From an uncultured virus (IMG/VR IMGVR_UViG_3300038825_001787) (lineage: Duplodnaviria > Heunggongvirae > Uroviricota > Caudoviricetes): DNA of 20,000 bases. Position 1 is the first letter of the stretch; each line of letters opens with the position of its first letter. The stretch lies in the IMG/VR virus record IMGVR_UViG_3300038825_001787, one strand, 5' to 3'. Below are positions 1,608 through 16,270 of the stretch, in pieces. The translations under genes were made by a program, and so were the position numbers. Below the pieces are notes generated by a model, which was given only the letters and a program-made list of their open reading frames with translations, did not search any database and was not told the DNA's origin.

Positions 1608-1619
1608 TCCGTTTACTAG

Positions 1620-2138
1620 ATGAAATATATTTGTAAAATATGTGATTTGGAATTCACGACAGAGGCAGCAGAAAAACTGCATAACTCTGTTTTTCACAAA
1701 AAGAAAGCCAAAGTAAAGACACCGAAAAAACCACCAAAGAAGGATAAACTCCTGGCAACTGATGCTAGGAAAGGATACCTTTCTCGTGGCGGTGAAAATA
1801 CCAAAGTATTCTTGCCCGATGGAAAGTCTACTAAATATAAAGACTACATCAAAGGAATGCGAGACGGCTTTCCTGACTTCAAAGTCGGCGATAAAATCGC
1901 TGCGAAAGAAGTTAGAAATTTGTTTAAGCACGATATATATAATACAAAAGATATCAAAGGTGCTAAACTGGAAGTTAAAAGAATTGTCAAAAATAAGAAT
2001 GGTATTAGAAGATACTATTTGGAGAACAGCAAAGTGCGATTGACGTGGTCCGAAGGGGTCGCTTTCAAGAGTCATGCTGAAAGAAAAATGCGTGACAAGC
2101 ATATTATACTTCCAATTAATTTGTTTCACAAAAAGTGA
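1620..2138 (+). CDS. Basic protein with N-terminal C2H2-type zinc finger
   Basis: CKIC-x11-H-x4-H at the N-terminus. ATG directly follows ACTAG. Confidence 0.8.
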   Translation: MKYICKICDLEFTTEAAEKLHNSVFHKKKAKVKTPKKPPKKDKLLATDARKGYLSRGGENTKVFLPDGKSTKYKDYIKGMRDGFPDFKVGDKIAAKEVRNLFKHDIYNTKDIKGAKLEVKRIVKNKNGIRRYYLENSKVRLTWSEGVAFKSHAERKMRDKHIILPINLFHKK

Positions 2139-2147
2139 AACTACTAG

Positions 2148-2225
2148 ATGAGTTCGGAAGATAACCCCATGCGGGCCTTCCCATTAAGTAAGAACAATGA
2201 TATCAGGAATTTTGAGTGTGGTTAG
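2148..2225 (+). CDS. Putative 25-aa peptide (MSSEDNPMRAFPLSKNNDIRNFECG)
   Basis: Not in the ORF track. ATG follows hairpin GTTTCAC/GTGAAAC + tACTAG, and the stop lies in the next junction hairpin. Confidence 0.5.
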   Translation: MSSEDNPMRAFPLSKNNDIRNFECG

Positions 2226-2245
2226 AATATAACCACATTCATCAG

Positions 2246-2440
2246 ATGAGTAAAATAGAAGATGACGTATGTCAACAAATACAAGACCGTGCCAAAGTGG
2301 GGCTAAACAAATATGGAACCACTATGGAGCGTACTGACCTTTCTACAATAGACTGGTTGGAACACGCCAAACAAGAAGCAATGGATCTTGTCATATACTT
2401 AGAGCGTATCATACAAGATATGCGTGAGAAGGAAGAATGA
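2246..2440 (+). CDS. Conserved phage-type small helical protein (KYGTT...W..HA.QEAMD motif; possibly all-alpha NTP-pyrophosphatase-like)
   Basis: Motif recalled from phage hypothetical proteins. Start moved to ATG 2246, which follows an 11-bp hairpin + ATCAG. Confidence 0.75.
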   Translation: MSKIEDDVCQQIQDRAKVGLNKYGTTMERTDLSTIDWLEHAKQEAMDLVIYLERIIQDMREKEE

Positions 2441-2455
2441 ATCTTCCATTACTAG

Positions 2456-2737
2456 ATGGAAATCAAAATTAAAATGGAACCCGAAGACATACCAAAAATA
2501 TTGAAGGGGATTGGAAACGTCGAACAACCGGCAGAGTCTGTTGTTGAGAAACGTGCCAAAAGGGCCGACATTGGACAAAACAGAGTCCCCTGGTCGAAAA
2601 GAGAGAAGGCTTGGCTGAAAAAGCAGGCAAGACCAACCATTGATAACGGTCATCATCGGCAAGAATTGAAAGAAATGTTTGGCAATATCCGAACAGCGAA
2701 GTCAATAGATGCTTGTTGGAGAAGACTTACCAATTGA
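2456..2737 (+). CDS. Putative Myb/SANT-like HTH DNA-binding protein
   Basis: PWSKREKAWL...FGNIRTAKSIDACWRRL resembles a Myb repeat. Motif-linked start. Confidence 0.7.
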   Translation: MEIKIKMEPEDIPKILKGIGNVEQPAESVVEKRAKRADIGQNRVPWSKREKAWLKKQARPTIDNGHHRQELKEMFGNIRTAKSIDACWRRLTN

Positions 2738-2790
2738 TTGAGCATAACATAGTAAGATTAATTACTAACTATGTTTCCTCAATTTACTAG

Positions 2791-2991
2791 ATGACACTGA
2801 TGCCAAAGCAAAGTGAGAACCTGGGACTAGAAATCTCAGAGCCTATATACAGGCTGGCAACAAGCATATACGAAAAGCACAATTCCAAGGTCTTAGCAGG
2901 CAGTGGAAAATGGATGCCCACAAACGTAGCGGTTGACTTGGCAAAAAAAATGCTAAGTGAAACGAATGCTAGTCGGTCTAATACTAGATGA
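2791..2991 (+). CDS. Hypothetical protein
   Basis: 66-aa ORF with motif-linked ATG. Its stop overlaps the next ATG (ATGA). Confidence 0.6.
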   Translation: MTLMPKQSENLGLEISEPIYRLATSIYEKHNSKVLAGSGKWMPTNVAVDLAKKMLSETNASRSNTR

Positions 2992-4220
2992 GTAATATAA
3001 ACGAAAATCAAGGATACGCAGTTGAAGGAAGATTGAAAGAAACAGCCAAAGGGTATTTAGCCCTCTGGTCAATTAATGCAGGTAGGATGAGATATTCCGA
3101 CCTTGTTACTGTTGCTAAGCGCAATGGTTTAACACAGGGTCAGATACCGAAACTACGAACCGCAAAGAATGCTTTTGCAGTTGCAAAGGATACTATACTT
3201 AACTCCGCATTACCAACACTCTTAGAATTAGATGGTTGGGATGGAGCGGTCAAACAAAGTTTAGATGTTAAACATCTAAAAAGAGGAAATGAATACCAAG
3301 TCTCGGTTAGACGAGAAGGTAGAATGCATGGGAAGTTGCACAAGGAAAGTTCTCCAGTCTTTAGACTGGAATTCTCTCCTCCAGATGCCTTTGACCATGT
3401 TGCATGGGTACAAAACTACATGCGCTCTTTTTGGGATGCTGAATACATCAAAGAAATTGAAGCAGGTACTAAACAAAGACCTGTACCTAGTCAAACTAGG
3501 GTTTGTATACGTATAGAAGGCTATTGGGATGACAGCGATATTGACGTCGAGTTGATGTTGAGAGTCAGAGACCGAATAAGCCAAGCATTTGAAGATACTA
3601 TTGTTAGTATTGACGAAACGCTTTTGCGACAACACATTAAAGAGACATTGAAATCTTTAAACGGTATTAGTTTCCTTGCAGGCAAGGGGGCTACATATAT
3701 TCCCATTACAGACGAGGACAGAGATTCAAAATCTGCGTCTTTGGAGTCTATGGCTAATATTATCACCTCTTTTTCTAGAGGATACCAAACAACCGCAAAC
3801 GATGAAAACTACTATGACGAGAATGGCAAACCCATCAATCGTTATGGAACATCAAGTAATTTTAGATATCTAGGATACCTAGATAGCGAAAGAGAGATGC
3901 AGTACATAAGAGAAGATTTGGGTTCCAGTATTTCGAGAGAAATAGCGGAGTTCCAAGCAGAAGTCGTTAAGACTGCTGCCTCTTTTGATACAACTAAAGT
4001 CGAACTTTTCGAGAAGCAACTTACCAAATTGCAGAGAAAGAAAACTAATATTACTAAAAGAATCGGCAATATGCGCACAACATTGGGCGGAGAGATTCCT
4101 ATTCGTAGGAGACTCCATTCTGATGTTCAGCAAAGATTTGGTAGCCGAATCTCAAACATAACTCAGACCCACAATGCAGTTAGTACTACATTGATGAAGT
4201 TAACTGAGTTTGACAATTGA
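2988..4220 (+). CDS. Hypothetical protein, resembles DUF6744-like family, with C-terminal coiled coil
   Basis: 410-aa ORF. Patterns GYLALWS...GL...IP...AF and GISF..G.GATYIP were recalled from that family and not verified by search. Confidence 0.75.
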   Translation: MSNINENQGYAVEGRLKETAKGYLALWSINAGRMRYSDLVTVAKRNGLTQGQIPKLRTAKNAFAVAKDTILNSALPTLLELDGWDGAVKQSLDVKHLKRGNEYQVSVRREGRMHGKLHKESSPVFRLEFSPPDAFDHVAWVQNYMRSFWDAEYIKEIEAGTKQRPVPSQTRVCIRIEGYWDDSDIDVELMLRVRDRISQAFEDTIVSIDETLLRQHIKETLKSLNGISFLAGKGATYIPITDEDRDSKSASLESMANIITSFSRGYQTTANDENYYDENGKPINRYGTSSNFRYLGYLDSEREMQYIREDLGSSISREIAEFQAEVVKTAASFDTTKVELFEKQLTKLQRKKTNITKRIGNMRTTLGGEIPIRRRLHSDVQQRFGSRISNITQTHNAVSTTLMKLTEFDN

Positions 4221-4238
4221 GGCTAATGCCTCTTACTA

Positions 4239-4954
4239 GAAAGTAAATACAACTGATGCCCTTCGGGGCAAATGACGTATCGCCGAAAATTCCGGTAGAG
4301 CACGCTCTACAGGAACGGCTCATCCTCCGGAACTGCTTCAGGCTGCTGCGCAGACTACTGCGTATCTGAAGCCTTTACCCTAACATCCCTATCACCTTGC
4401 GGCTCCGCTGCGGTGAAACGGAATGTAAACGGGCACGCCTAAACTACAGTTTCCTCGAGCGAGTAAACTGGTTTAACGGCTAATCCTACGGAATAACAAT
4501 CAGGATTTAGTCCTGATAGTATGAGCCTATTTACCGCCTCTACCCTCATTGGGGTAACCCAATTAACCTTCTAAAGAAGGGAGGGCGAGAGGCTTCGGCT
4601 CCTCGGAACTACTACGGCACGAACCAAGATTGAGTTAATCAGTCAAGAGAAATATAAGTACCCGCGTACTGACATTTCACATGACTTACTCAATTTTCAT
4701 GACTTACCCTATGTAGAAACATAGATTTGAACAACTTGAGGCGGCTCTGCGCTGCCCTAAAGGGACATCAAATCTCTGCGTCTACCCCTAGTAAGTCACG
4801 AAAGTTCATACCTTGAGCCACGGTGGAATCCAGAAACAAGTCTTCTGGATTCTGCCCTGCAACTGTATGCTCTGCGGAACCCCGCATACAACGTTGCGGC
4901 TTGGCTCAACCGGTTCATCGCCAAGTTCCTCGGAAAATAGTTTTACTTTCACTA
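4239..4954 (+). ncRNA. Candidate large structured RNA, about 715 nt, family unassigned
   Basis: Bounded by ACTAG sites. No credible ORF. Dense hairpins, including TGCCC-TTCG-GGGCA at 4257-4270. Ends pair: GAAAGTAAA 4239-4247 with TTTACTTTC 4942-4950. Confidence 0.65.
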
Positions 4955-4983
4955 GAGCCTCGAAAGAGGAAGAGTTGATTGAC

Positions 4984-5376
4984 ATGATTGAAGAAAGAAA
5001 CAACATAGTTGACCAAGCAATTACTGATGTAGCACCCGCTACACCAATTGCTGAGCAACCCAAGAAAACAAAAATGGCGCCCATAACGAATGAAATATTT
5101 ATTCGTATGTGGAACCAATCTGAATATGTCAATGATGCAGCAGAGGCGATGGGTATGAACCCCGCTTCTGCAAGAGCAAGGGCCGCAAAACTGAGGGCTA
5201 TATTTGCGAAAGCAGGTGTAGAAATACAGTTGAAGAAACACCCTAAAGCACCAAGAAAGCAAAAGAAGTCGTTGGTCAATGACCTAGACGAACTTGAAAG
5301 ACTTGCTGCGATTGCTAAAGCATCATTACCATCAGAGCCAGCAACACAAAGTGCACCATCAGAGCAATCTGAATGA
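4984..5376 (+). CDS. Putative HTH-like nucleic-acid-binding protein, 130 aa
   Basis: Start moved to ATG 4984, which lies downstream of ACTAG 4951 and a purine-rich leader. FIRMWNQSEYVNDAAEAMGMNPASARARAAKLR is HTH-like and is followed by a basic patch. Confidence 0.7.
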   Translation: MIEERNNIVDQAITDVAPATPIAEQPKKTKMAPITNEIFIRMWNQSEYVNDAAEAMGMNPASARARAAKLRAIFAKAGVEIQLKKHPKAPRKQKKSLVNDLDELERLAAIAKASLPSEPATQSAPSEQSE

Positions 5377-5394
5377 AACACTTGTGTTCTACTA

Positions 5395-5949
5395 GAGAGA
5401 ACTAAAACACCGATGCCGAACAAGCATGTGACGTAAATTAGTAAATTAGAGATTACACATAGCAAGGAAGTCAAACTGATTTTCTGCTAAATCTAAATCT
5501 GCATGGTGATCCAAGCAAGTAATCACGAATGGAATAAATCCACTCGCTGATTTGTATAGGGCAGTTGCCCTACTCAAATCTTACCTGCCCAGGGTCACCA
5601 GCACAATTAGAATAAAGAATTCACATTCGTGAATTAAACTACCACCACATTAGAACGGTAGTCTGCCTTAGAATTAATTTTTTAACATCCGCAACTGGAA
5701 ACGTTCCGCGTGTCTTCACATTCACCTTTACAAAGTAAAGGCCGCACAATACTGTGCCACCAACAGTGAGGTAAAATCCTCACAACATTGGTTGAATGTT
5801 CCAAACACAGCGTCCGAGTTCCAATGCGGAACACCAAAAATCAATAAAAGTTAAACACTAAAACTAGGCAGCATTAAACTGCCAAAGTAAAGCGGCTTAT
5901 ATAAGCCCAATAGTAAAACTTGAAACACTAAAAACTAGAACTCTCACTA
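5395..5949 (+). ncRNA. Candidate large structured RNA, about 555 nt, family unassigned
   Basis: Bounded by ACTAG sites. No + strand ORF of 60 aa or more. Many hairpins joined by A-rich linkers. Ends pair: GAGAG 5395-5399 with CTCTC 5941-5945. Confidence 0.6.
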
Positions 5950-6025
5950 GATAGACCACCATATTTTATATTCATCACCATGAAAAAATAATGGTTTATA
6001 TGACAATCGGGAAAGACCGGTACCA
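5950..6025 (+). ncRNA. Possible 76-nt small RNA ending in hairpin-ACCA (not a cloverleaf tRNA)
   Basis: Lies between ACTAG 5946 and ACCAG 6022. Long interrupted hairpin (TAGACCA/TGGTTTA) plus ATCGG-gaaaga-CCGGT. Confidence 0.3.
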
Positions 6026-6026
6026 G

Positions 6027-6098
6027 ATGAACAAAACTAAACCACTACAACAACTCAATGCTGATTTCCTAAAAAAAGATTGGACGTATGAAAAATGA
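6027..6098 (+). CDS. Putative 23-aa peptide (MNKTKPLQQLNADFLKKDWTYEK)
   Basis: ATG directly follows hairpin + ACCAG variant. Confidence 0.35.
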   Translation: MNKTKPLQQLNADFLKKDWTYEK

Positions 6099-6110
6099 CG
6101 CTTTTAATTT

Positions 6111-6281
6111 ATGGACGCATGGATTAAAAATGAAAGTATACTTGTTGGAAAAGGCGACAGGGGTAAAACCCGGCTCTGTGGTCACAAGTTTTGCGTCGGA
6201 CACCATGAAAGAATGGAACACTATGCTGTGGGCCCGAGCGGTGACAGTCATATTGTTAAAAGGGGTGAGATTCCCCACTAG
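6111..6281 (+). CDS. Putative 56-aa Cys/His-containing protein (alternative frame: ORF 6088-6285)
   Basis: MDAWIKNESILVGKGDRGKTRLCGHKFCVGHHERMEH... ends on the TAG of the ACTAG site. The coding frame is ambiguous. Confidence 0.3.
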   Translation: MDAWIKNESILVGKGDRGKTRLCGHKFCVGHHERMEHYAVGPSGDSHIVKRGEIPH

Positions 6282-7514
6282 ATGAATATCAAATGGAAGA
6301 CAGAAGAGACGCGTTGTATCCATAAAGACCCACGGGACTTTAGCAGATGCAAAATTAAAGACGTTAAACCTGGAGAATACTTATGTGAACACCATAAGTA
6401 CGATCTCGCATCATTTGTAAATGACCCAACAGCCTGTATTGATATTATGGCTGAAAGGTTTCCAAAAAGACATCATCCTGCCTGTGACCGCAAAGGAGAA
6501 AATGACTGCGAATGTCATGACTACTCTAGAGGCGCAAGTATGATGATTACCATGAAGGCTGCTTTCAAAGAAAGCAAACTTCAGAGTAAACTATACCAAA
6601 AACACTTGAAAGTAACGATGGCTGATAAAGTCCGTCGAATCAAGAACTATTATAGGAATATAACAGAGGATGATATATATCTACCTCCCTATAGTAATTT
6701 TAGACAGTATAGATTTTTCACATGGGAACCAAAGAGTCAGAGAATCGTTGTCAAAGTATTGAAAGATAATGTAAGGACAAAGAAAATTCTGCTCAGTCAT
6801 CTACGAAGACTGGCACCTATACACGTGTATTACACAACAGGTCAATGGCTAAATCCGCAAGGAATTGGTCCTGACCCTGAATCACGTAAAGGTTTAGCCA
6901 AGATGCGAAAGAAAGGTTGGTGCGCTAAAAAAAGTAAGAAAGTTACTTTGAAGCGATACCATAACACCATGTTGAAACGAGATTTATATTTCGATATAGA
7001 TTACGACAACAAAGACTATCATCAAGGAATAAGGATGGCCGACGAACTAATACATGCAATAAATAAACACATTCATTGTTATCAGTTCAACGGCGTAAAA
7101 CAACAAATCGTATTTAGTGGAGGCAAAGGCTTCCACTTGATAATAAACGGATACTATGACGAAGCGTTTACTAGACCTAGTAAGCGTAAATTGTACGACC
7201 TATTGAGAAGAGAGGCTATAAAAAAAGGCGAAGATAAAAACGCCGCTTTCTTACGCTACTCTGTCAACCACGAAAACAAAAATGCAGCGATTGAAAACCA
7301 CTACAAAGACATAGTGGATATTCTGCAATACGAAACAGACCTTTTGTTAGATTGGATGGTTACATATGATAACCGTAGAATAATACGATTGCCTGGAAGC
7401 GTGCATGGAAAGTCCATGCGTGTTTGTAAGGAAATTAATTTTAGTGACGATAATGTTATTAAAAACCGTGCTGGAAAACCCGTTGGGTATGTTCCAGCAG
7501 ACCCCATTCCTTGA
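6282..7514 (+). CDS. priS: Archaeo-eukaryotic primase catalytic subunit (PriS-like) with Cys/His-rich N-terminal extension
   Basis: AEP motifs DLYFDIDYD, VFSGGKGFHL and DWMVTYDNRRIIRLPGSVHGKS, plus APIHVYYT resembling PriS P.HVYYS. Confidence 0.88.
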   Translation: MNIKWKTEETRCIHKDPRDFSRCKIKDVKPGEYLCEHHKYDLASFVNDPTACIDIMAERFPKRHHPACDRKGENDCECHDYSRGASMMITMKAAFKESKLQSKLYQKHLKVTMADKVRRIKNYYRNITEDDIYLPPYSNFRQYRFFTWEPKSQRIVVKVLKDNVRTKKILLSHLRRLAPIHVYYTTGQWLNPQGIGPDPESRKGLAKMRKKGWCAKKSKKVTLKRYHNTMLKRDLYFDIDYDNKDYHQGIRMADELIHAINKHIHCYQFNGVKQQIVFSGGKGFHLIINGYYDEAFTRPSKRKLYDLLRREAIKKGEDKNAAFLRYSVNHENKNAAIENHYKDIVDILQYETDLLLDWMVTYDNRRIIRLPGSVHGKSMRVCKEINFSDDNVIKNRAGKPVGYVPADPIP

Positions 7515-7523
7515 GGTTACTAG

Positions 7524-8060
7524 ATGACAAATGAAATTGAATTTTATGTTGATGGCTCTGCCATCAATAATGAGAATCCAAATGTACGAACTCTTGGAGG
7601 TATAGGTGTTTACAGACGCACTAACTCAGAGAACGGTATTAATATTTTAACTGCCCGACCAGATCAAGAATGGGCAATAAATGTTGATGACGGTGGCGTA
7701 GCGTTGAGGCGTGAAATCCCATTAGATTTGGGAAAAGTAACAAACAATACTACCGAACTGGCTGCAATATACTATGTTCTTCTGATAATAAAACTGAACC
7801 ATAAATATGACAATTGCATAATATACGGAGACTCGCAATACGCGGGTAACTTAGTATTTGGAAACTGGAAAGCAAAACAAAACAAGGAACTAGTTGCTAA
7901 GGTTAAAGCCCTGGCAAAAACAGTTCCTAATGTCACATGGGAATATGTGAAAGCACACGATGGCAATGTCTACAATGAATATGCAGACTACCTTGCCAAA
8001 TCTGGTGCATACAACAGAACCCCACTACCATTCGATGAATGGAAAGAAACGGAATTTTAA
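7524..8060 (+). CDS. rnhA: Ribonuclease HI
   Basis: FYVDGSA, TNNTTELAAI, IYGDSQYA and VKAHDGNVYNEYADYLAK supply the D-E-D-H-D catalytic set. Confidence 0.93.
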   Translation: MTNEIEFYVDGSAINNENPNVRTLGGIGVYRRTNSENGINILTARPDQEWAINVDDGGVALRREIPLDLGKVTNNTTELAAIYYVLLIIKLNHKYDNCIIYGDSQYAGNLVFGNWKAKQNKELVAKVKALAKTVPNVTWEYVKAHDGNVYNEYADYLAKSGAYNRTPLPFDEWKETEF

Positions 8061-8070
8061 TTCCTACTAG

Positions 8071-8862
8071 ATGAGTACTAAAAGAGAAAATCAAAAAATA
8101 CCCACACGAGAAATCAATGGTGTCGACATACCATTAACAAAGATGGTCGACGCACAAAAGATGCTGACATCTCAAAGAGATGCTGTTTCTAAACTATTAG
8201 CCACCATAAAAGGTGCTTGTGAAGAATACTCAGGTTGGACAAGAGAATTTAGCGATAGTGATTTAACCCCACTTCGCACGACGAACTTTGTCAAACTAGT
8301 AAAGCAATCTGAAACAGACTTGAATGTACTTCAAGTATGGGATGGACAAAAGTGGATAAATGTACAACTTACTAAAATTGTACTGGAACCGAAGGTAGAC
8401 AAAGATGTCAAACCTTCATCGAAACAAATAAGCAAGAAATCGCCAATAGAGGTTCACAGGACCCAGATGGCTAAGAAAAAATACAAAGACCTCGGAGACG
8501 GACTAGACTTCAAAACAAAGTACGGTGTCGAGATAATGTTACTTGCAATTAATTGCTTCAAAGAGGCATACCAAATGGAACGACAAAAAGGAGGAGACTT
8601 AGGGTCTTTGACTTTGTTCTGGGAAGACTGCACCAAATATGTTAGAAACCATCAGAGCGTTAGTTCCGTCCTTACACCTGGATGGAAAAATGCTTTGCTA
8701 AAGTCGTTAATTGACGACGGATGGATTCTTGGCAGAAAAGACAAGGCTTTGACCGTAAAACCTTTTTCAAAAGGTATCGAAGGTTGGCCTAGTGGTGGAA
8801 AGTTACATCCTACTGTACTTGGAGAAGCACCAATTCGTATTACAAAATATATGAAAAAATGA
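8071..8862 (+). CDS. Hypothetical protein
   Basis: 263-aa ORF with motif-linked start. Confidence 0.8.
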   Translation: MSTKRENQKIPTREINGVDIPLTKMVDAQKMLTSQRDAVSKLLATIKGACEEYSGWTREFSDSDLTPLRTTNFVKLVKQSETDLNVLQVWDGQKWINVQLTKIVLEPKVDKDVKPSSKQISKKSPIEVHRTQMAKKKYKDLGDGLDFKTKYGVEIMLLAINCFKEAYQMERQKGGDLGSLTLFWEDCTKYVRNHQSVSSVLTPGWKNALLKSLIDDGWILGRKDKALTVKPFSKGIEGWPSGGKLHPTVLGEAPIRITKYMKK

Positions 8863-8880
8863 AACATTTGTTTCTACTAG

Positions 8881-9048
8881 ATGAGTTATAGAAAAAGACA
8901 AAAAATACATAACATAGTCGAATGTCCTAATGTATGTTGTAAACATAATACACACATGAATGTAGATGAATTCAGGTGTGTCGATTGTGTCACAAGAATA
9001 TACAATATCAAACAAATGCTACAAGATTTGATGGATAACTTGGACTAA
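8881..9048 (+). CDS. 55-aa putative zinc-binding protein
   Basis: Not in the ORF track. MSYRKRQKIHNIVECPNVCCKHNTHMNVDEFRCVDCVTRIY... with motif-linked ATG. Confidence 0.7.
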   Translation: MSYRKRQKIHNIVECPNVCCKHNTHMNVDEFRCVDCVTRIYNIKQMLQDLMDNLD

Positions 9049-9105
9049 AGACAACAACTATAAACCCCCAATTTAGGGTTCATATTGTTACTAGGAGAAC
9101 TTAAA

Positions 9106-9540
9106 ATGACAAAGCAAACCAAATTAAGCGACTTCCTCAAGGGAGTTGCAGAAGAAGACGAAAAGCACCGCACACCGAATGCCGAAATTGAAGATAGGGA
9201 AGACTTTAAGGCTGAATTTGACACAGTATATGAGAACTATATTGTGGAAAGTTACACCTCAGATATCCCTAGCAATTTCGATGATAAAACAAACACAGTT
9301 GTGAAATTGACAAGCCCCGCTGGAGACAAACTCCAAATGTGGGTTGGAAGTTACGAACAAGACCACTTTCACCAGAAAGTTGCTGCTTGGGAAAAACAAG
9401 GTCATGAACTACCAGTGAAAATATCATTTGCACGAATCAAGGTGCCGTCAAAGAAAGACCCAAGTAGGTCATACAACAGACTGAAGATTCAGACTGTTGC
9501 TCTTGGCCCAGATGTGGCTCAAGAATTACTTACACTTTGA
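9106..9540 (+). CDS. Hypothetical protein, possibly OB-fold ssDNA-binding
   Basis: ATG 9106 follows ACTAG-GAGAACTTAAA, which contains an SD-like GGAG. Beta-rich pattern with an acidic N-terminal segment. The fold call is a guess. Confidence 0.75.
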   Translation: MTKQTKLSDFLKGVAEEDEKHRTPNAEIEDREDFKAEFDTVYENYIVESYTSDIPSNFDDKTNTVVKLTSPAGDKLQMWVGSYEQDHFHQKVAAWEKQGHELPVKISFARIKVPSKKDPSRSYNRLKIQTVALGPDVAQELLTL

Positions 9541-9560
9541 GGTTAACGACCTCTTACTAG

Positions 9561-9809
9561 ATGGATAAGAAAAACCAAAAGCAATGTTGCTATGAATGCA
9601 ACAAAGAACTAACCGAAGCAGAATCATACCGAGTCCCTACCGACTCAGGAAGTGTGAGAGGGCGACAGGTTAAACCAAGAGGAAGAGATCGATTTGAAAT
9701 CATAGCAGATTACCATGTTTGGAACAATCTATGCTATGGTTGCTTTATCGCTTATTCCGGCTTCGACAATGAAGGTAGACCAGCAGTGGTCCAACTTTCA
9801 GAAGCGTGA
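9561..9809 (+). CDS. Small zinc-finger protein
   Basis: CYEC...CYGC pairs. Motif-linked start. Confidence 0.75.
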   Translation: MDKKNQKQCCYECNKELTEAESYRVPTDSGSVRGRQVKPRGRDRFEIIADYHVWNNLCYGCFIAYSGFDNEGRPAVVQLSEA

Positions 9810-9829
9810 GGCTTTGAGCCTCTTACTAG

Positions 9830-10699
9830 ATGAGTAACTTTGAAAGTGAAAATGAAATGGAGGAAAGAATGACAAGAAGATCCTGCTCGGATTGCGGATG
9901 CAAAATGAGTAGGGTACCTAAGAAAGGAAGGCCAAACAGAATCGGTTTGAGAACAAATGGTGTAAATATGCACTATATGTTAAAAACTGCTTTGTGGTTT
10001 GAAATAAACCAAGCATACCGAGGATTGTTGTGCCTAACATGTGCACAAATAAGACTTGGTAGAAAGTTTGTTCCAACCGATTTTAAGCCCGTACCAATTA
10101 ATTTTGCGAAGGGTGGAGCATTGGCTACACTGTTCCCAGGTGAATTTACAGCCCACATGGTTGCATTCGTTGGGGAAGAAACCGTAGAAGAGCAAGATGA
10201 AGCGAGAAGGCTTGTAGATGCTCACTATAAATCACTTGAATCAAAAAACACGACCCCTTCGAAAGAGGAAGTTGCTGTTGATTTAACTCCAGAAGAAAAT
10301 AATTCTGAAACTGAAACTGAAACTAAACCTAAAAGTAAAGGTAAGTCCAAGAAAAAAACTACGACATCGAAGAAAACCAAGAAAGCAATGGATGACCTCA
10401 AGAAAAATAAGAGAGTCTTTACTAATGCCATCTATGGTTGGGATGTCAAAGACAGAAAGTTGTACCCAAACTGGGATGAACAAAACAATATTGATTGGAT
10501 GAAAAAACAATTAGGCTTTGGAATACCTGCTGCAGAAATAGCAAAGACACTGAATATAAACGACTGTCGCGGAAAGCGTGGCGGTAAGTGGAATAGTTCT
10601 GGTGTATTGCGTACAGTCAAATACGACATCCATGCAGATAGGGATGAGTCTGAAGCACCAAGGTGGTTCAGAAAGCGTTCCGGTAACAGAATAAGATAG
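9830..10699 (+). CDS. Fusion of a phage-type Zn-binding domain and a serine-recombinase 'Recombinase' DNA-binding domain; no catalytic resolvase domain
   Basis: N-terminal CSDC...YML...LW...LLCLTC...RLGR...DF..VPIN. C-terminal YGW...LYPNWDEQ...G....EIAKTLN....RGKRGGKW....V.R. Confidence 0.75.
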   Translation: MSNFESENEMEERMTRRSCSDCGCKMSRVPKKGRPNRIGLRTNGVNMHYMLKTALWFEINQAYRGLLCLTCAQIRLGRKFVPTDFKPVPINFAKGGALATLFPGEFTAHMVAFVGEETVEEQDEARRLVDAHYKSLESKNTTPSKEEVAVDLTPEENNSETETETKPKSKGKSKKKTTTSKKTKKAMDDLKKNKRVFTNAIYGWDVKDRKLYPNWDEQNNIDWMKKQLGFGIPAAEIAKTLNINDCRGKRGGKWNSSGVLRTVKYDIHADRDESEAPRWFRKRSGNRIR

Positions 10700-10717
10700 G
10701 CAATACTGCCTTACTAG

Positions 10718-11791
10718 ATGACAAAAAAAACAGACAAGAGGCGCAAGAGATTCAAATCTAGTGCGTCTAAAAAGAAAACATCAACAAAAACAACAACAAA
10801 AAAACCAAAGTCAGATCCGATATGGGATCGACTATGGACTCGAGAGGCAATTTTGGCCCATGCGTGGGTTGTCGCTGATCATATATTTGACAGCGATGAC
10901 GCACAATTGATTGATATCGGTATAACTTCTAGTTATACAGAATCAAATGACAACAGAAAGGTCTATCGATTAAAGAACAAGGAAAAGAAAAATCTATCTT
11001 TGGAAAAACATATTACAGTTCCAGCAGGTGGTATATCGCTCGAAAGTGCATTATATACCGGACACTGGAAGGACTTTGTGAATATTGTTGTTAAGATGAT
11101 TACTGGCTATTCCCCCATCACTGATGAGTGGGATAGTAGGTATGATTCTAAGGCACCGGACTTAAGAAGTGTTGCAACTAAGCGATATTTTAGAGTCAAA
11201 CGACTTTTGGAAGAATCCATAGAATCAATAATTTACTTGAGATACTATGACGCAAAGAAGGAATTCTCTGCAAAATTTCCAGAGTTTAAAACCAGATACT
11301 TAGATAAAATAAGTTTTGGTGACAAGGTGATAGATAAAACTACACTACCTTACAAAACACTACACAGATGCAGGAAAAAACAATGCCATGGATTGTGTTT
11401 TAAATCGACCCTAAAGAAATTAAAGAACAGGGATGAAGACGGTAGTACCGGAGCACAAGCATACCTCATTGCAAGGGCACATGAACTTGCCCTGCACAGT
11501 AGAATGACAAAAGACATATACAATTATGCACTATACGGCGACAGAACTATATTCCGTAACGAGGATTCTAGATTCTGGGATCTTTTTGACAAAGATCATC
11601 TTATAGATGCCTCATTTAGTGAAAGCGTAATTGCCACATATGTAATTATTTTTCTAACCAATGACAAAGGTACTGTACCACCTGGATATCCAGTTGGTAA
11701 GGAAGCAGACCGTATCCGTAAAATGTTTAATAAAATTTTATCGGACGCAAAAGACTCCTACCCTAAATTAAAGGGTAAGGTGCGTAGGTAA
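10718..11791 (+). CDS. Hypothetical protein with basic N-terminal tail
   Basis: 357-aa ORF with motif-linked start. Confidence 0.8.
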   Translation: MTKKTDKRRKRFKSSASKKKTSTKTTTKKPKSDPIWDRLWTREAILAHAWVVADHIFDSDDAQLIDIGITSSYTESNDNRKVYRLKNKEKKNLSLEKHITVPAGGISLESALYTGHWKDFVNIVVKMITGYSPITDEWDSRYDSKAPDLRSVATKRYFRVKRLLEESIESIIYLRYYDAKKEFSAKFPEFKTRYLDKISFGDKVIDKTTLPYKTLHRCRKKQCHGLCFKSTLKKLKNRDEDGSTGAQAYLIARAHELALHSRMTKDIYNYALYGDRTIFRNEDSRFWDLFDKDHLIDASFSESVIATYVIIFLTNDKGTVPPGYPVGKEADRIRKMFNKILSDAKDSYPKLKGKVRR

Positions 11792-11806
11792 TCTTGATGC
11801 TTAACT

Positions 11807-11837
11807 CACCAACCTAGAAATAGGTTGGTGTTTTTTT
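11807..11837 (+). terminator. Intrinsic-terminator-like hairpin
   Basis: CACCAACCTA-GAAA-TAGGTTGGTG (10-bp perfect stem) followed by T7. Confidence 0.75.
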
Positions 11838-11847
11838 ATCTTACTAG

Positions 11848-12066
11848 ATGAGAGGAATAAAGACCCGAACCAGAGCACTTGATGCCTGCGCGAACATACT
11901 AAAGCAAACTGCTAGACCTATGTCTTCGTCAGAACTGATTGGTGCTATGATAAGTAAAAACCCTAGAAGTACAAGATGGGCGCCACAGGCGCAAGCATTG
12001 AGTAATTGGCTAAGGGGAGATCAAAGGTTTCAATCCTTTGGTAGAAAGCAGTGGAAACTAAAATAA
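11848..12066 (+). CDS. Winged-helix protein (HARE-HTH-like)
   Basis: ILKQTARPMSSSELI...ALSNWLRGDQRFQSFGRKQWKL matches the wHTH pattern. Confidence 0.72.
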   Translation: MRGIKTRTRALDACANILKQTARPMSSSELIGAMISKNPRSTRWAPQAQALSNWLRGDQRFQSFGRKQWKLK

Positions 12067-12230
12067 CCACTTACTAGATGAAGAAAATATACGGAGACAC
12101 TTACCTTAGTGTTGAAGAAGAATTCGCCGCTATAAACAAATTAGCAGAAATAAATGCTAAAGAGTTTTTAGTTGAAATAATACACTTATTTCCAAACAGT
12201 GGAAACTAAAATAACCACTTACTAGATGAA
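12049..12230 (+). repeat. 34-bp exact direct repeat (12049-12082 and 12197-12230) flanking a small ORF
   Basis: CAGTGGAAACTAAAATAACCACTTACTAGATGAA occurs twice. Confidence 0.95.
12078..12209 (+). CDS. 43-aa hypothetical protein
   Basis: Not in the ORF track. MKKIYGDTYLSVEEEFAAINKLAEINAKEFLVEIIHLFPNSGN, with motif-linked start and the stop in the next hairpin. Confidence 0.6.
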   Translation: MKKIYGDTYLSVEEEFAAINKLAEINAKEFLVEIIHLFPNSGN

Positions 12231-12729
12231 AAGGAGATACAGTCCTAACAGGAACAGAAGAAAAGGTACAACACTAAAGAAGAGCCGAGAATGGCTCAAG
12301 AAAAAAGTGCATTGTAATTATTGTGGTGACGAGATAGAAACACTCGTTGATAAAAAGGCCAAAGGGCCATTTTACCATAATGACTTATGTGAGCAGGCTT
12401 GGGAATCAGAGCAATCTGGTGGACCCGTGCTTGCTTCTTCTAAAAACTATCACGACATAGAAGATGATACTTTGTGGCGTGAATTGAGTTATACCAAAAC
12501 AGAAAGTGCAGAAGATGCACTTCATAACATGATAAGTGAAAGAAGAATTGAAGTTGCAAAGCGCAAAGGCTACCCCATAATGGGGTGGCAAACGCCAAAA
12601 CACACCGCCTTTTCTTTTAATCACAAAGGCGATGCAATACACTCTGCTGTCGACAAAGATGCTCTTTCTGAGCAACTTAAAGAGCAGCAAGTTAGCGTAT
12701 TGTGGCTACGTAGTTACCTGAGAAGGTAA
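12226..12729 (+). CDS. Hypothetical protein with CxxC...HxxxC metal-binding motif
   Basis: 167-aa ORF with CNYC...HNDLC. Motif-linked start. Confidence 0.78.
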   Translation: MKRRYSPNRNRRKGTTLKKSREWLKKKVHCNYCGDEIETLVDKKAKGPFYHNDLCEQAWESEQSGGPVLASSKNYHDIEDDTLWRELSYTKTESAEDALHNMISERRIEVAKRKGYPIMGWQTPKHTAFSFNHKGDAIHSAVDKDALSEQLKEQQVSVLWLRSYLRR

Positions 12730-12740
12730 TGCGTTACTAG

Positions 12741-13589
12741 ATGTATAATGAAGATAACATTAAAGAAAAGAGATTACAAATAACGACTTTGACCGAAGAA
12801 GAACACGAGAAACTCAGAAACTTAACACTTTCTGAAGTAAAGGTTACTCCGGTCTGCATGGGTGCAAAAGTTGGTTGTCACTTGGCCGAATGGCCTAGTG
12901 GTAGAACCGGCAAAGCGCACTTCTGTAACGGTGATGGATTAGATGTTAATTACTATGTATTACTTAGTGACAACTCTAACGATGAACTAATTCGTGCTCA
13001 CGCAGTGGGTAAATGTAATCATACACACTTGGATATTGCCAGAAGAAATATTGATGGCAAAAACAAAAGACAAAGAAAAAAGGACATGAAAGCCGCATTC
13101 AAAGATTTGAGGGAACTCATTCTTTTAGTCGGCAGCAACTTAGAACAATTCTATACCGCTTGGCGTATTTCACTACGACCAAGTGATAAAGAGTTCTTTG
13201 AACTGTTTATGGACTACAAGCGAGACATGGCGCTGGCAGAATGTTTGGTGATGCTTAATTCGGAAGAATACCGCAACACTGTACCACGATTACCAGAAGA
13301 AAGTGACTTTGCTTGGGACAAGAGATTTAGACAACAGGCTGTATTGCACTTAGATGCTATACAAGAACTAGCAACAGGAAGTTATGCTGAATTCCAAATG
13401 GATGAAGAAGACTATGCTAATCTAACTGCTGCTATTAGAGTCTCTATGGTTCAACTAAAAAATCAACGTTCTTTGAACAATTGTTTTTTGAAGTTTAATA
13501 GCGAATCTGCACTTGCTCTTTTCATTGAGCGAGCAGGATACGGACACTTAATGTCTGATGATATTAAACAAAGATGGTTAGGAGAATAA
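12741..13589 (+). CDS. Hypothetical protein
   Basis: 282-aa ORF with a Cys/His-rich N-terminal half. Motif-linked start. Confidence 0.8.
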   Translation: MYNEDNIKEKRLQITTLTEEEHEKLRNLTLSEVKVTPVCMGAKVGCHLAEWPSGRTGKAHFCNGDGLDVNYYVLLSDNSNDELIRAHAVGKCNHTHLDIARRNIDGKNKRQRKKDMKAAFKDLRELILLVGSNLEQFYTAWRISLRPSDKEFFELFMDYKRDMALAECLVMLNSEEYRNTVPRLPEESDFAWDKRFRQQAVLHLDAIQELATGSYAEFQMDEEDYANLTAAIRVSMVQLKNQRSLNNCFLKFNSESALALFIERAGYGHLMSDDIKQRWLGE

Positions 13590-13605
13590 GCCTGACTATT
13601 ACTAG

Positions 13606-13956
13606 ATGACTACAAAAAAATGTAAAGAATGTGAAAAAGAATTCACACTGACACAACCTGCCCAAAAATACTGCTCGGATGAATGCCGAGGTATTAGCAG
13701 GAAGACTTACATGAAAGAAATGATGGCTCTGAGAAGAGAGATTTTGTTTTTTGAAATGATGAATAGTACCGCGAAGGATGTACCAATACCAGACGACCAA
13801 GAATTAATGGTTGCTTGGTATAAAACACCTGGGTTACTAGAATTTATCAGGAATTGTATAAAGGAAGGCCAACGAGTAGTTGGCATCCAAATAACCAGGA
13901 ACGAAACAGGAATTGTTGTCGTACCCGATGGTTTAATTAACGCCTCAGAAGACTGA
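13606..13956 (+). CDS. Protein with N-terminal CxxC...YCSxxC (TRASH/treble-clef-like) zinc finger
   Basis: KKCKECEKEF...QKYCSDECR. Confidence 0.78.
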   Translation: MTTKKCKECEKEFTLTQPAQKYCSDECRGISRKTYMKEMMALRREILFFEMMNSTAKDVPIPDDQELMVAWYKTPGLLEFIRNCIKEGQRVVGIQITRNETGIVVVPDGLINASED

Positions 13957-13966
13957 GGTTTACTAG

Positions 13967-14137
13967 ATGCGTAAAATAGATACTAAAGCATATCAACCAC
14001 ATACTTTTGGTGGCGCAGCACGATTCGTGCTTGACGCCCCTGAAATATTGGCAGCCCTCGATGAAGGGTACGAAGAAATTCGGCAATTAAAGGCCGAGAA
14101 TACGAGACTCAAATCTCAACTACCTACTAATGAGTAG
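13967..14137 (+). CDS. 56-aa protein related to 15969-16244
   Basis: Not in the ORF track. MRKIDTKAYQPHTFGGAARFVLDAPEILAALDEGYEEIRQLK... with motif-linked start. Confidence 0.7.
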   Translation: MRKIDTKAYQPHTFGGAARFVLDAPEILAALDEGYEEIRQLKAENTRLKSQLPTNE

Positions 14138-14145
14138 GCTACTAG

Positions 14146-14478
14146 ATGAATGAATCAACGGAAGTAAAAACAGAAAAAGAACTAGTTGCCGAACTTGACG
14201 AATACACCGCAACAATGCGGCAAATTCGCAAGTTAGATGCTAGCAGGATGAAAATAAAACAATCTTTTCATGCTAGTTTAGTACCTGGACAGGAAATGGT
14301 TGGTCACTATCAGATAAAATCTGATAACATAGAAACAACCAGAATGAAGTCCGTAGAAGCATGCCGAGCAGAATTAATTGGACTTGGATATGATGAAAAA
14401 GAAATCATGAAAATAATGTCCAAATTAATTAACTACGGTGTAAGCAGACAGTTCTTAGTTAAATACGACCCCCAATGA
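14146..14478 (+). CDS. Hypothetical protein
   Basis: 110-aa ORF with motif-linked start. Confidence 0.75.
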   Translation: MNESTEVKTEKELVAELDEYTATMRQIRKLDASRMKIKQSFHASLVPGQEMVGHYQIKSDNIETTRMKSVEACRAELIGLGYDEKEIMKIMSKLINYGVSRQFLVKYDPQ

Positions 14479-14508
14479 GTTAAAAAGAAAACTCAAATGG
14501 GCTACTAG

Positions 14509-14808
14509 ATGGAAGAAAAAGACTGGCAACCGAGCATATCGGATATAGAATGGACACGACGTACAATAGATACTTTGGTGGAAGAAGGAGCATGGGGTAT
14601 ACCCTCTGCAAATGTCTTACTAAAAGTATCAAAGATAAACAAAAGATACGGAATAAGTCCAATAAAAGACAGATCACTTAATCAAAATGAGACAGCCCTC
14701 CTAATTCGCACAGTTAAAACAATGAAAAAACTGGATTACGAAATAGGTGCTGTCGAAGGTGGAATAGCATTCCACTCTGGAATCAGTGTCATCTTTAAGG
14801 TGGCTTGA
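14509..14808 (+). CDS. Hypothetical protein
   Basis: 99-aa ORF with motif-linked start. Confidence 0.75.
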   Translation: MEEKDWQPSISDIEWTRRTIDTLVEEGAWGIPSANVLLKVSKINKRYGISPIKDRSLNQNETALLIRTVKTMKKLDYEIGAVEGGIAFHSGISVIFKVA

Positions 14809-14818
14809 TTCTTACTAG

Positions 14819-15040: not shown

Positions 15041-15062
15041 CACTGGGCTGACGCCTTACTAG

Positions 15063-16244: not shown

Positions 16245-16270
16245 CCTTCATGGGCTAACGCCCTACTAGA

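What the first reader, a model, noticed from the sequence alone, without database searches (positions are those of the whole stretch)
5946..6029. Boundary is predicted at ACUA|G, and variants ACCA and AUCA suggest tRNA acceptor-end mimicry
Seen: in both large non-coding units the G of the opening ACTAG pairs with the C just before the closing ACTA, giving G-stem-C plus a 4-nt 3' overhang. Two sites with a good hairpin and a directly following ATG use other tails: ATCGG-gaaaga-CCGGT-ACCA-G-ATG (6006-6029) and GAGTGTGGTTA-gaata-TAACCACATTC-ATCA-G-ATG (2214-2248). The consensus is AYYA|G. The unit 5950-6025 is 76 nt and ends in ACCA, but has no cloverleaf. Established: tRNA ends are a stem plus NCCA. 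Inference: the sites may mimic acceptor minihelices for a tRNA-processing-type enzyme. All three variants are also YAG, so a cut after G cannot be excluded.
Basis: partly seen in the sequence, partly recalled or inferred. Interest (0 to 1): 0.7.

Follow-up and report, generated by a model that had tools for sequence, protein, structure and literature searches.

The report
Helix-plus-NYYAG punctuation between viral genes
In this abundant uncultured marine virus nearly every gene or RNA module is separated from the next by a small helix and a five-letter mark just before the ATG. This looks like an undescribed way of cutting one long transcript into units, and its resemblance to tRNA ends is only partial.

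Summary
ACTAG is over-represented and strand-specific. 30 window genes start 0-1 nt after it, usually behind a hairpin that holds the upstream stop codon. ACCAG (6022-6026) and ATCAG (2241-2245) close two short non-coding modules. In 80+ related marine loci the pentamer is lineage-specific (ACTAG, ATTAG, YTTAG, CATAG/CACAG). It also precedes structured RNA modules and a tRNA, so it is not a translation signal.

RNA modules begin with the G of the mark, and that G pairs with the C just before the next mark. Stems are 6-14 bp and covary, and 69 of 101 such modules end in ACCA. This supports the A|G boundary and an acceptor-like geometry.

CCA itself is not conserved. The hairpin at 6006-6021 occurs in 27 distinct copies, with tails ACTA 17, ACCA 5, AATA 4, ATTA 1. 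Other lineages use 3-nt tails. There is no T-arm or cloverleaf, and real viral tRNAs do not use the junction. The 76-nt length is coincidental.

The best reading is RNA-level punctuation by an unknown helix-plus-tail endonuclease, giving near-leaderless mRNAs and discrete RNAs. The main rival is an initiator for a virus-modified RNA polymerase. No RNA ends could be mapped. This scan noted a similar mark earlier in another genome.

The parts
5946..5950 (+). ACTAG mark that closes RNA unit B and opens the 76-nt unit
   Evidence: Conserved in L001.
5950..6025 (+). 76-nt non-coding unit: a long imperfect hairpin (5951-5999), the conserved 3' hairpin and an ACCA tail
   Evidence: Fold (z -2.6). No tRNA or Rfam hit. 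The length is not conserved: 195 nt in L081.
6006..6021 (+). Conserved hairpin NNCGG-GAAAGA-CCGNN
   Evidence: 27 distinct copies in relatives. Three pairs are invariant, one is U.G 19 / U-A 8, and the outer pair is G-C 12 / A-U 7 / unpaired 8.
6022..6026 (+). ACCAG mark (tail ACCA plus G)
   Evidence: In L081 and L075 the same hairpin plus ACCAG directly starts the primase gene. It reads AATAG in L001.
6027..6098 (+). 23-codon frame after ACCAG, probably not a gene
   Evidence: 1-2-nt indels in L001, L061 and L062 break the frame.
6277..6281 (+). ACTAG mark behind hairpin ggggtgagattcccc, directly before the primase ATG (6282)
2143..2147 (+). ACTAG mark opening the 98-nt module
2148..2245 (+). 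98-nt non-coding module ending in a 12-bp hairpin (2213-2241) and ATCAG. It is present or absent between strains.
   Evidence: Contigs of runs X16 and X17 skip exactly 98 nt here. Fold z -2.7, and -5.0 for the hairpin alone. L001 has a further ~195-nt insert at the same mark.
2246..2440 (+). Real gene (64 aa) starting right after ATCAG
   Evidence: PHROG hits down to 5.9e-13, scanned from codon 2.
4239..4954 (+). RNA unit A (716 nt): closing stem 4239-4247/4942-4950, 5' core 4253-4277, tail ACTA
   Evidence: In the ~65% lineage the same unit ends in ACCAG, with GAGAGTAAA/TTTACTCTC as a covarying stem.
4984..5376 (+). 130-aa gene with a 28-nt leader after ACTAG 4951-4955
   Evidence: Orthologues in relatives start directly after ACCAG.
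5395..5949 (+). RNA unit B (555 nt): closing stem GAGAG/CTCTC, 5' core 5410-5433, tail ACTA
1615..19724 (+). 30 gene starts placed 0-1 nt after ACTAG. 24 of the 29 folded have a hairpin ending <=4 nt before TAG.
11807..11838 (+). The only canonical hairpin-plus-U-tract terminator on the + strand, 5 nt before the mark at 11843
   Evidence: Conserved in L001.

Best explanation
The ACTA|G boundary is one instance of a family-wide RNA punctuation grammar. In the replication/early arm of these viruses every expression unit ends in a helix followed by a 3-4-nt tail (AYYA here; AYA or YUA in other lineages). A unit can be a protein gene, a structured RNA module or a tRNA.

The helix takes one of three forms:
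- a local hairpin that holds the upstream stop codon;
- a ~47-nt hairpin module;
- the terminal stem of a 100-1300-nt RNA module.

The next unit starts with the following G, and in most genes the ATG comes directly after it.

The most likely mechanism is that the arm is transcribed as long precursors and an endonuclease cuts after the tail. That enzyme would read a helix plus a single-stranded NYYAG. The cut would leave upstream RNAs with helix-protected 3' ends, and downstream it would leave near-leaderless mRNAs or discrete RNAs.

Shown: the grammar, its strand polarity, its conservation with lineage-specific marks, the register of the helices, and the use of the marks as cassette breakpoints.

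Inferred: that cutting occurs, its exact position, and the enzyme. A tRNA-maturation-type enzyme is a candidate only for the ACCA-tailed RNA modules. RNase P would cut 5' of G+1. A tRNase Z that cuts after the tail is the other option.
For: Non-random and strand-specific.

The same architecture occurs in 80 metagenome loci, a MAG contig and two viral records, with lineage-specific marks.

565 of 840 distinct gene starts in relatives sit directly behind an NYYAG-type mark.

A hairpin is found in 415 of 629 junctions, against 175 of 629 control sites.

The median distance from the upstream ORF end to the next ATG is 9-18 nt, so the stop codon lies inside the hairpin.

It is not a translation signal:
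- the mark precedes RNA units A and B;
- it precedes a tRNA in L037 and C2;
- it precedes genes with 6-28-nt leaders.

It acts at RNA level:
- long-range closing stems start exactly at the G and end exactly before the next mark, with covariation;
- tandem modules share one mark as both end and start (L138, L109, L110);
- the conserved hairpin has a U.G pair in 19 of 27 copies.

No conserved upstream promoter element appears in 594 aligned junctions, where information is confined to -9..+13. Sigma-70-like sites show no excess.

ACTAG inside ORFs is not depleted: about 16-18 sites against ~17 expected. The pentamer therefore needs its helix context.

The punctuated arm of L037 ends in hairpin-plus-U-tract terminators, unlike the internal hairpins.
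Against: No RNA 5' or 3' end was observed. Only assembled contigs of RNA libraries were available. They cannot show ends and may hold DNA.

No candidate RNA endonuclease was recognised among the window's proteins or among 87 ORFs of the complete relative G002.

The spacing between the local hairpin and the mark varies by 0-4 nt, which is awkward for an enzyme that measures from a helix.

G.U pairs exceed A.C only modestly in junction hairpins (70 vs 47), and not at all in the long-range stems (16 vs 13).

A canonical terminator sits 5 nt before the mark at 11843. This suggests either re-initiation there or read-through.

G002 encodes an RNA polymerase Rpb1-domain-5 protein, which favours a transcriptional reading.
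Confidence: 0.5

Rival explanations
1. The mark is a transcription initiator. A viral or virus-modified host RNA polymerase would start at the A or G of ..YAG, and the preceding helix would act as terminator or promoter element. Each unit would then be its own leaderless transcript.
For: - The mark is lineage-specific, as expected for a co-evolving viral factor.
- The complete relative G002 encodes an Rpb1-domain-5 RNA polymerase protein.
- A Y-then-R step sits in the mark.
- A canonical terminator lies 5 nt before the mark at 11843, with genes following.
- In G002, 22 modules of fixed length (18 of 22 are 47 nt) place a conserved GAATTACA about 22-29 nt before the ATG, the usual place of an archaeal TATA box (the TATA position is recalled).
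- The mark resembles the T7-class promoter end CTCACTATA|G (recalled).
Against: - No conserved element lies upstream of -9 in 594 junctions.
- Stems and loops vary freely.
- Closing helices up to 1.3 kb apart cannot form in duplex DNA, yet they take the same place as the local hairpins.
- RNA modules in tandem have no promoter-like sequence in the preceding module's 3' end.
- The variable flanks of the G002 47-nt modules appear complementary on inspection, which fits an RNA hairpin (judged by eye, not counted).
- No T7-like polymerase was found in G002 or G001, but that family search rang in no control genome.
Confidence: 0.22
2. The mark is a translation re-initiation or coupling signal. Ribosomes that terminate inside the hairpin would restart at the ATG 10-17 nt downstream, without a Shine-Dalgarno sequence.
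For: - The ATG follows the mark by 0-1 nt in 30 window genes.
- The stop codon lies inside the hairpin, with a median gap of 16 nt.
- The sequence after the ATG is A-rich and unstructured.
- No SD-like sequence lies before these genes.
Against: - The same mark precedes RNA modules, a tRNA and genes with 6-28-nt leaders.
- Marks also follow non-coding modules, where no ribosome arrives.
Confidence: 0.08
3. The mark is purely a DNA-level cassette or recombination site, comparable to PeSL or attC sites, with no role in expression.
For: - Strain indels end exactly at marks: 2145->2244 and 15955->17358 (X16, X17) and 5935->6276 (X16).
- Contigs diverge right after ACTAGATG (loose ends at 14821 and 18944).
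- L001 has an insert at the 2143 mark.
- The same small module sits at different junctions in different lineages.
Against: - The strict strand polarity, the fixed place between stop and ATG, and the use of the G in RNA closing stems all point to expression.
- Shuffling is an expected by-product of any short repeat.
Confidence: 0.05
4. Strict tRNA acceptor-end mimicry. The ACCA tails would be functional CCA ends that are charged, repaired by the CCA-adding enzyme, or used as decoys. All junctions would be read through that identity.
For: - 69 of 101 closed RNA modules end in ACCA behind a G-C-closed stem.
- ACCAG and ATCAG are tied to non-coding modules.
- A at both -1 and the first tail position prevents the stem from extending further (sequence; inference).
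Against: - Tails are interchangeable at one and the same hairpin: ACTA 17, ACCA 5, AATA 4, ATTA 1.
- 25 of the 101 modules end in ACTA.
- Other lineages use 3-nt tails.
- There is no T-arm.
- Real tRNAs sit apart from the marks.
Confidence: 0.05

Closest known systems
PeSL (promoter-early stem-loop) cassettes of T4-type phages (PMC2839356: search listing and start of abstract; PMC4122927: abstract and outline)
   Same: A short composite stem-loop motif is repeated between many small genes, and insertions, deletions and replacements between strains break at the motif.
   Different: PeSLs combine a terminator with a host sigma-70 early promoter. Here no promoter consensus is present. The mark abuts the ATG, also bounds RNA modules, and can be preceded by long-range RNA helices.
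Mitochondrial tRNA punctuation: RNase P and RNase Z cut polycistronic transcripts at tRNAs (recalled; PMC8003010 and PMC11996679 seen as search listing and start of abstract only)
   Same: Structured elements between genes would define both ends of neighbouring RNAs and give leaderless mRNAs.
   Different: The punctuation here is not a tRNA. It is any helix plus a 3-4-nt tail and a G, and neither enzyme nor cleavage has been shown.
Host RNase III processing of phage T7 early polycistronic RNA (general knowledge)
   Same: A viral polycistronic RNA is cut at intergenic hairpins, which then protect the 3' ends.
   Different: RNase III needs roughly 20-bp duplexes and cuts within them. Here stems are 4-12 bp and the predicted cut lies 3-8 nt downstream, in a conserved single-stranded pentamer.
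tRNA acceptor ends, RNase P model substrates, and a tRNase Z that cuts after an encoded CCA (recalled)
   Same: A G-C-closed helix is followed by A-C-C-A, and then by the first nucleotide of the next helix.
   Different: CCA is not conserved, tail length differs between lineages, there is no T-arm, and coding units have no helix at their 5' G.
Magrovirus group D elements (PMC5434244, passages read)
   Same: The complete relative G002 carries the four genes named for group D: DNA polymerase B, a thermosome-type chaperonin, a resolvase and an RNA polymerase A-like protein. It also carries MCM and an AEP primase.
   Different: The six terms searched in that paper (primase, ligase, RNA polymerase, promoter, genome size, RNase H) gave no occurrence of 'promoter', and the seven passages shown do not mention intergenic marks. 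'Stem-loop' and 'intergenic' both have 0 occurrences in it. The window itself holds only primase, RNase H and ligase, so its link to group D rests on synteny and 37% primase identity.

Membership tests
tRNA / tRNA-like structure | Cloverleaf or at least a T-arm stacked on the acceptor stem | tested here: not met
   ARAGORN found 0 genes in the window. Rfam found 0 hits at gathering score and at E<=1 over 4150-6350. The 76-nt unit folds as two hairpins. Only genuine tRNAs were hit in relatives.
tRNA / tRNA-like structure | Acceptor helix closed by G1-C72 and followed by NCCA | tested here: inconclusive
   Met by 69 of 101 closed RNA modules in relatives. At the flagged hairpin, ACCA occurs in only 5 of 27 distinct copies. 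Window units A and B end in ACTA.
RNase P substrate | The cut nucleotide (+1) is the first base of a helix whose 3' strand carries a single-stranded tail | tested here: inconclusive
   The geometry is met for RNA modules. It is not met for coding units, where the G before ATG has no partner helix. Cleavage is not testable with these tools.
PeSL composite terminator-promoter | Stem-loop followed by a host early promoter (-35/-10) | tested here: not met
   A stem-loop is present. No promoter consensus appears in 594 aligned junctions. Sigma-70-like sites number 54 against 49.5 expected.
PeSL composite terminator-promoter | Strain-level indels break at the motif | tested here: met
   Joints 2145->2244, 5935->6276 and 15955->17358, and the L001 insert at the 2143 mark.
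Intrinsic (rho-independent) terminator | G+C-rich hairpin followed by a U-tract | tested here: not met
   Only one junction hairpin on the + strand has a U-tract (11807-11838). The others are followed by 0-4 nt and the mark.
RNase III processing site | Roughly 20 bp of duplex | tested here: not met
   Junction stems are 4-10 bp by my rule. 341 of 415 are 4-6 bp.
N4-type hairpin promoter | 5-7-bp stem with a 3-nt loop at a fixed distance from the start (recalled) | tested here: not met
   Loops are 3-12 nt; 4 nt is commonest and 3 nt occurs in 36 of 415. Tails vary 0-4 nt.

The most novel reading that the evidence does not exclude
An abundant group of marine viruses, probably archaeal, expresses a whole genome arm by 'tRNA punctuation without tRNAs'. 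A tRNA-maturation-type or new viral endonuclease would read any helix plus an AYYA-type tail and cut before the next G. One cut per junction would make both the leaderless mRNAs and hundreds of distinct ACCA-tailed structured RNAs of a new family. The same marks would serve as the joints for shuffling gene and RNA cassettes.
Probability: 0.2. Interest if true: 0.9.

Novelty: new variant of a known kind. Interest (0 to 1): 0.74.

Why it matters
If cutting at these marks is confirmed, it would be a compact and general rule for viral gene expression. One helix-plus-pentamer signal would replace the promoter, ribosome-binding site and terminator for dozens of genes, and would make near-leaderless mRNAs. 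It would point to a nuclease of unknown identity, either a host tRNA-processing enzyme used for mRNA or a new viral one.

The work also exposes a large, unannotated family of structured RNAs with paired ends and ACCA tails. I counted 201 distinct module starts in the loci fetched, and up to 15 in one 21-kb locus. The viruses are widespread in seawater metagenomes. The marks make gene starts in this viral dark matter predictable, and they explain its cassette mosaicism.

Tried and rejected
RNA ends. The one run search and one read layout gave only assembled contigs of six RNA-labelled runs. Some contig ends fall at marks (10716, 13965, 12078, 18942), but assembly graphs also branch there, so I draw nothing from this. 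Oligo-dT libraries holding the virus are not evidence of polyadenylation. No spliced-leader or poly(A) loose ends were seen among the rows shown.

Host. One relative contig is binned in a Flavobacteriales MAG, and that MAG shows no excess of CTAGATG. G002's archaeal-type genes make the binning doubtful. SD-like GGAGG/GGTGA before genes outside the punctuated arm also argue against a Bacteroidota host; the Bacteroidota link is recalled. The host remains unproven.

Viral polymerase. The T7-like RNA polymerase family was not found in G001 or G002, but the search rang in no control genome, so it is uninformative. Records behind L037 and five metagenome loci are not held.

The conserved 410-aa protein next to the RNA units:
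- no PDB sequence match;
- AlphaFold model with pLDDT 81;
- no Foldseek match at E<=0.001;
- the Atlas places it with DUF6744 viral proteins of unknown function.

Other negative searches:
- A 14-mer junction scan of IMG/VR found 34 loci, of which only one contig shared the architecture.
- An alignment of 11 short RNA modules gave no consensus fold because the interiors are too divergent.
- No hammerhead or other ribozyme family was found by Rfam.

Considered by eye and rejected:
- The hammerhead core does not fit.
- A bulge-helix-bulge reading fails because both tails lie at the same end of the closing helix.
- The spliceosomal reading of YAG fails because the 98-nt skip has no GT-AG in any register.

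Literature. Word searches found no description of this mark.
Full report
**What is in the window.**

All genes lie on the + strand and G+C is about 0.40. Recognisable proteins are:
- an archaeo-eukaryotic primase (6282-7514);
- RNase H (7524-8060);
- an ATP-dependent DNA ligase (17806-18921).

Almost everything else is unknown. There is no tRNA and no Rfam family. No cultured phage is close: there is no nucleotide match, the ligase is below 40% identical, and the primase has no match.

ACTAG occurs 57 times on the + strand and 16 times on the - strand, against 34.8 +/- 6.5 for both strands in shuffles. ACTAG(A)ATG occurs 33 times on + and never on -.

Thirty of these 33 open the window's genes. 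The other three are:
- the 25-codon frame at 2148;
- a 2-codon frame at 14892;
- a site inside the ligase gene.

Three more genes start 6, 11 and 28 nt behind an ACTAG (18949, 9106, 4984), and one starts behind ATCAG (2246).

Of the 29 gene junctions folded, 24 have a hairpin whose 3' arm ends no more than 4 nt before TAG. ACTAG inside ORFs is at chance level, about 16-18 sites against ~17 expected per strand. The pentamer therefore needs its context.

The first is hairpin 6006-6021, ACCA 6022-6025, G, ATG. The second is hairpin 2214-2240, ATCA 2241-2244, G, ATG. For the two large non-coding units:
- G4239 opens a 9-bp stem ending at C4950, before ACTA;
- G5395 opens GAGAG, which pairs with CTCTC ending at C5945, before ACTA.

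**Relatives.**

The virus is widespread in seawater. DNA runs from several studies hold 99% of the sampled words. Ligase and primase homologues number in the hundreds and sit on contigs of up to about 143 kb. I fetched:
- one close viral contig (L001/L036, primase 89%);
- 80 metagenome loci around the primase (43-97% identity);
- a 34-kb MAG contig;
- a 143-kb viral contig end (L037);
- a complete 140-kb relative (G002).

All share the architecture, but the mark is lineage-specific:
- ACTAG in the window's group and some others;
- ATTAG in the ~65% group;
- CTTAG/TTTAG in a ~45% group;
- hairpin, then Y, then TAG, then 0-3 nt in L037 and C2;
- CATAG/CACAG in G002.

Among 840 distinct predicted gene starts the counts are ACTAG 293, ATTAG 92, TTTAG 83, CTTAG 64, ACCAG 23, CCTAG 5, ATCAG 3, two singletons, and 275 with no such mark. 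Few minus-strand ORFs carry it.

The median distance from the upstream ORF end to the ATG is 9-18 nt for the TAG classes, so the stop codon lies inside the hairpin. A hairpin by one fixed rule is present at 415 of 629 distinct junctions, against 175 of 629 control sites inside ORFs.

**It is not a translation signal, and probably not a promoter.**

The mark precedes the window's two RNA units, genes with short leaders, and a tRNA-Arg in L037 and C2. That tRNA is arranged as hairpin, CTAG, 4 nt, tRNA, then CCA (L037) or no CCA (C2), 8 nt, hairpin, ATAG, ATG.

In 594 aligned junctions, information is confined to positions -9 to +13. This covers a pyrimidine-rich 3' arm, the mark, ATG, an A at +4 and an A-rich start. 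Nothing sits where a -35/-10 or TATA element would be. Sigma-70-like sites are at chance level.

**The A|G boundary.**

In relatives the non-coding stretches resolve into RNA modules. Each starts with the G of a mark. Each carries a conserved 5' core, CYGA, then a small hairpin, then RUGAYG, placed 6-24 nt downstream. That core has 391 matches on + against 36 on -. Each module ends in a stem formed with its own 5' end.

Of 201 distinct module starts, 101 have an in-register closing helix of at least 6 Watson-Crick pairs that ends exactly at a downstream mark. The closing marks are ACCAG 69, ACTAG 25, AATAG 3, AACAG 2 and two others. The median module length is 433 nt.

Stems covary. Examples are GATACCCTG/CAGGGTATC, GAGAAACTAATG/TATTGGTTTCTC and GAAGAGT/GCTCTTC. 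Tandem modules share one mark as both end and start.

An unbiased test gives the same answer. Of 540 distinct ACCAG sites, 141 have an upstream partner of at least 8 bp for the bases just before the mark. The partner is preceded by AYYA in 22 cases, against 2-3 when the 3' anchor is shifted by 1-5 nt.

Window units A and B are members of this family, with cores at 4253-4277 and 5410-5433. In the ~65% lineage, unit A ends in ...TTTACTCTC ACCAG and starts GAGAGTAAA. That is a compensatory change relative to the window's GAAAGTAAA/TTTACTTTC.

**The tRNA reading is only partly right.**

In its favour:
- CA-ending tails mark non-coding modules. ACCAG gene starts follow a median gap of 411 nt, 19 of 23 at >=100 nt, and all three ATCAG starts follow gaps >=100 nt.
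- Both window variants close short non-coding modules.
- A G-C-closed helix followed by A-C-C-A is the geometry of an acceptor end.

Against it:
- The hairpin at 6006-6021 is itself a conserved element with 27 distinct copies. Three pairs are invariant, one is U.G 19 / U-A 8, and the outer pair is G-C 12 / A-U 7. Its tail is ACTA in 17 copies, ACCA in 5, AATA in 4 and ATTA in 1. The closest relative has AATA.
- In L081 and L075 the same hairpin plus ACCAG directly starts the primase gene. The window's ACCAG is therefore an old primase junction, displaced by about 250 nt of inserted sequence.
- The 23-codon frame behind it is broken by indels in close relatives.
- The unit is 195 nt in L081, so 76 nt is coincidence.
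- Coding junctions have 0-4 extra nt between helix and mark.
- G002 uses 3-nt tails: helix-C then AUA|G or ACA|G. It has 22 copies of a hairpin module (18 of 22 exactly 47 nt) bounded this way.
- No T-arm or cloverleaf appears anywhere.
- G002's tRNA sits outside the marks.

**Mechanism.**

Three facts suggest the signal is read on RNA:
- a helix that can be a local hairpin, a 47-nt module or a stem closing up to 1.3 kb takes the same place before the same mark;
- RNA modules in tandem have no promoter-like sequence before them;
- the L037 arm ends in true hairpin-plus-U-tract terminators, unlike its internal hairpins.

The most economical reading is long precursors cut after the tail. That would give helix-protected 3' ends upstream, and near-leaderless mRNAs or discrete RNAs downstream.

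I could not observe ends. Only contigs of RNA-labelled libraries were available.

The enzyme is unknown:
- RNase P fits the RNA modules, because the cut would be 5' of a helix that bears a 3' tail. It does not fit the coding units, whose G has no helix.
- An enzyme that reads the upstream helix and tail fits all junctions. A tRNase Z that cuts after CCA is recalled as a precedent. Such an enzyme must tolerate variable spacing.
- The lineage-specific marks suggest a viral specificity factor.

**The main rival.**

G002 is complete, with direct terminal repeats. It carries DNA polymerase B, a thermosome-type chaperonin, MCM, a resolvase, two AEP primases and a protein with RNA polymerase Rpb1 domain 5. 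Four of these are the set that Philosof et al. name for magrovirus 'group D' (PMC5434244, passages read). Its primase-RNase H synteny matches the window.

This makes an archaeal host likely. It also allows a virus-modified RNA polymerase that starts at the mark. Two further points support this rival:
- the terminator at 11807-11838 lies just before the mark at 11843;
- the GAATTACA element sits at a fixed distance before the ATG in G002's 47-nt modules.

I give this reading about 0.22, against 0.5 for processing.

**Cassette joints.**

Strain variants break at the marks:
- contigs of two runs skip exactly the 98-nt module 2148-2245;
- they also skip 15955-17358;
- one contig replaces 5936-6275 with 10 nt;
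- contigs diverge right after ACTAGATG;
- L001 carries an extra ~195-nt unit at the 2143 mark.

This parallels PeSL-mediated shuffling in T4-type phages (PMC2839356, search listing; PMC4122927, abstract), but without their promoter.

**Prior knowledge.**

Word searches of the paper library found no description of this mark. My L037 and C2 data reproduce that pattern, and G002's gene content agrees with an archaeal link.

Noticed in passing
window 4239-4954 and 5395-5949; L109, L110, L119, L127, L138 and others: A large, unannotated family of structured RNA modules (100-1300 nt). Each has a paired 5'/3' end, a conserved 5' core (CYGA, small hairpin, RUGAYG) and mostly an ACCA tail. I counted 201 distinct starts, up to 15 in one 21-kb locus. 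There is no Rfam match. The core loosely recalls a box D/C-type K-loop (recalled; untested).
   Followed up: partly
window 2148-2245: A 98-nt non-coding module is present here but precisely absent in related strains. A homologous module (ATGAGTTCGGAAG..) sits before the primase in L081 and L085, so small modules move between junctions.
   Followed up: partly
window 11807-11838: This is the only canonical hairpin-plus-U-tract terminator on the coding strand. It lies 5 nt before the mark at 11843 and is conserved in L001. It may split the arm into two transcription units.
   Followed up: no
window 15063-15413: A 116-aa protein matches retropepsin-like aspartyl protease families (PF13975, 7e-8), which is unusual in a virus of microbes.
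   Followed up: no
window 12049-12077 vs 12197-12225; 15527-15549 vs 15946-15968; 16619 vs 17042: Junction hairpins are duplicated almost letter for letter, and two neighbouring genes share the same first 19 nt. These are signs of recent cassette duplication through the marks.
   Followed up: no
G002 (L143-L149), e.g. L144:18532-19869 (-), L143:16367-17896: The complete 140-kb relative encodes an RNA polymerase Rpb1-domain-5 protein, a thermosome-type chaperonin, MCM, DNA polymerase B, a resolvase and two AEP primases. This is the set described for magrovirus group D, for which the 2017 paper reported no closed genome.
   Followed up: partly
G002: 22 sites, e.g. L147:644-690, L146:12466-12512: Hairpin modules of fixed length (18 of 22 are 47 nt) read GAACC..GAATTACA..GGTTC plus ACA|G. 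They lie between a hairpin-CATAG and the next ATG. Their inner flanks appear complementary on inspection (not counted), and the conserved loop sits where a TATA box would be.
   Followed up: partly
L054 / G001:C2: A 34-kb contig of this virus group is binned in a Flavobacteriales MAG, probably a binning artefact given the archaeal-type genes of G002.
   Followed up: partly
window-wide (runs X16, X17): Oligo-dT-primed RNA libraries of marine samples hold contigs of related strains across most of the window. It is unclear whether this reflects transcripts with A-rich stretches or carried-over DNA.
   Followed up: no
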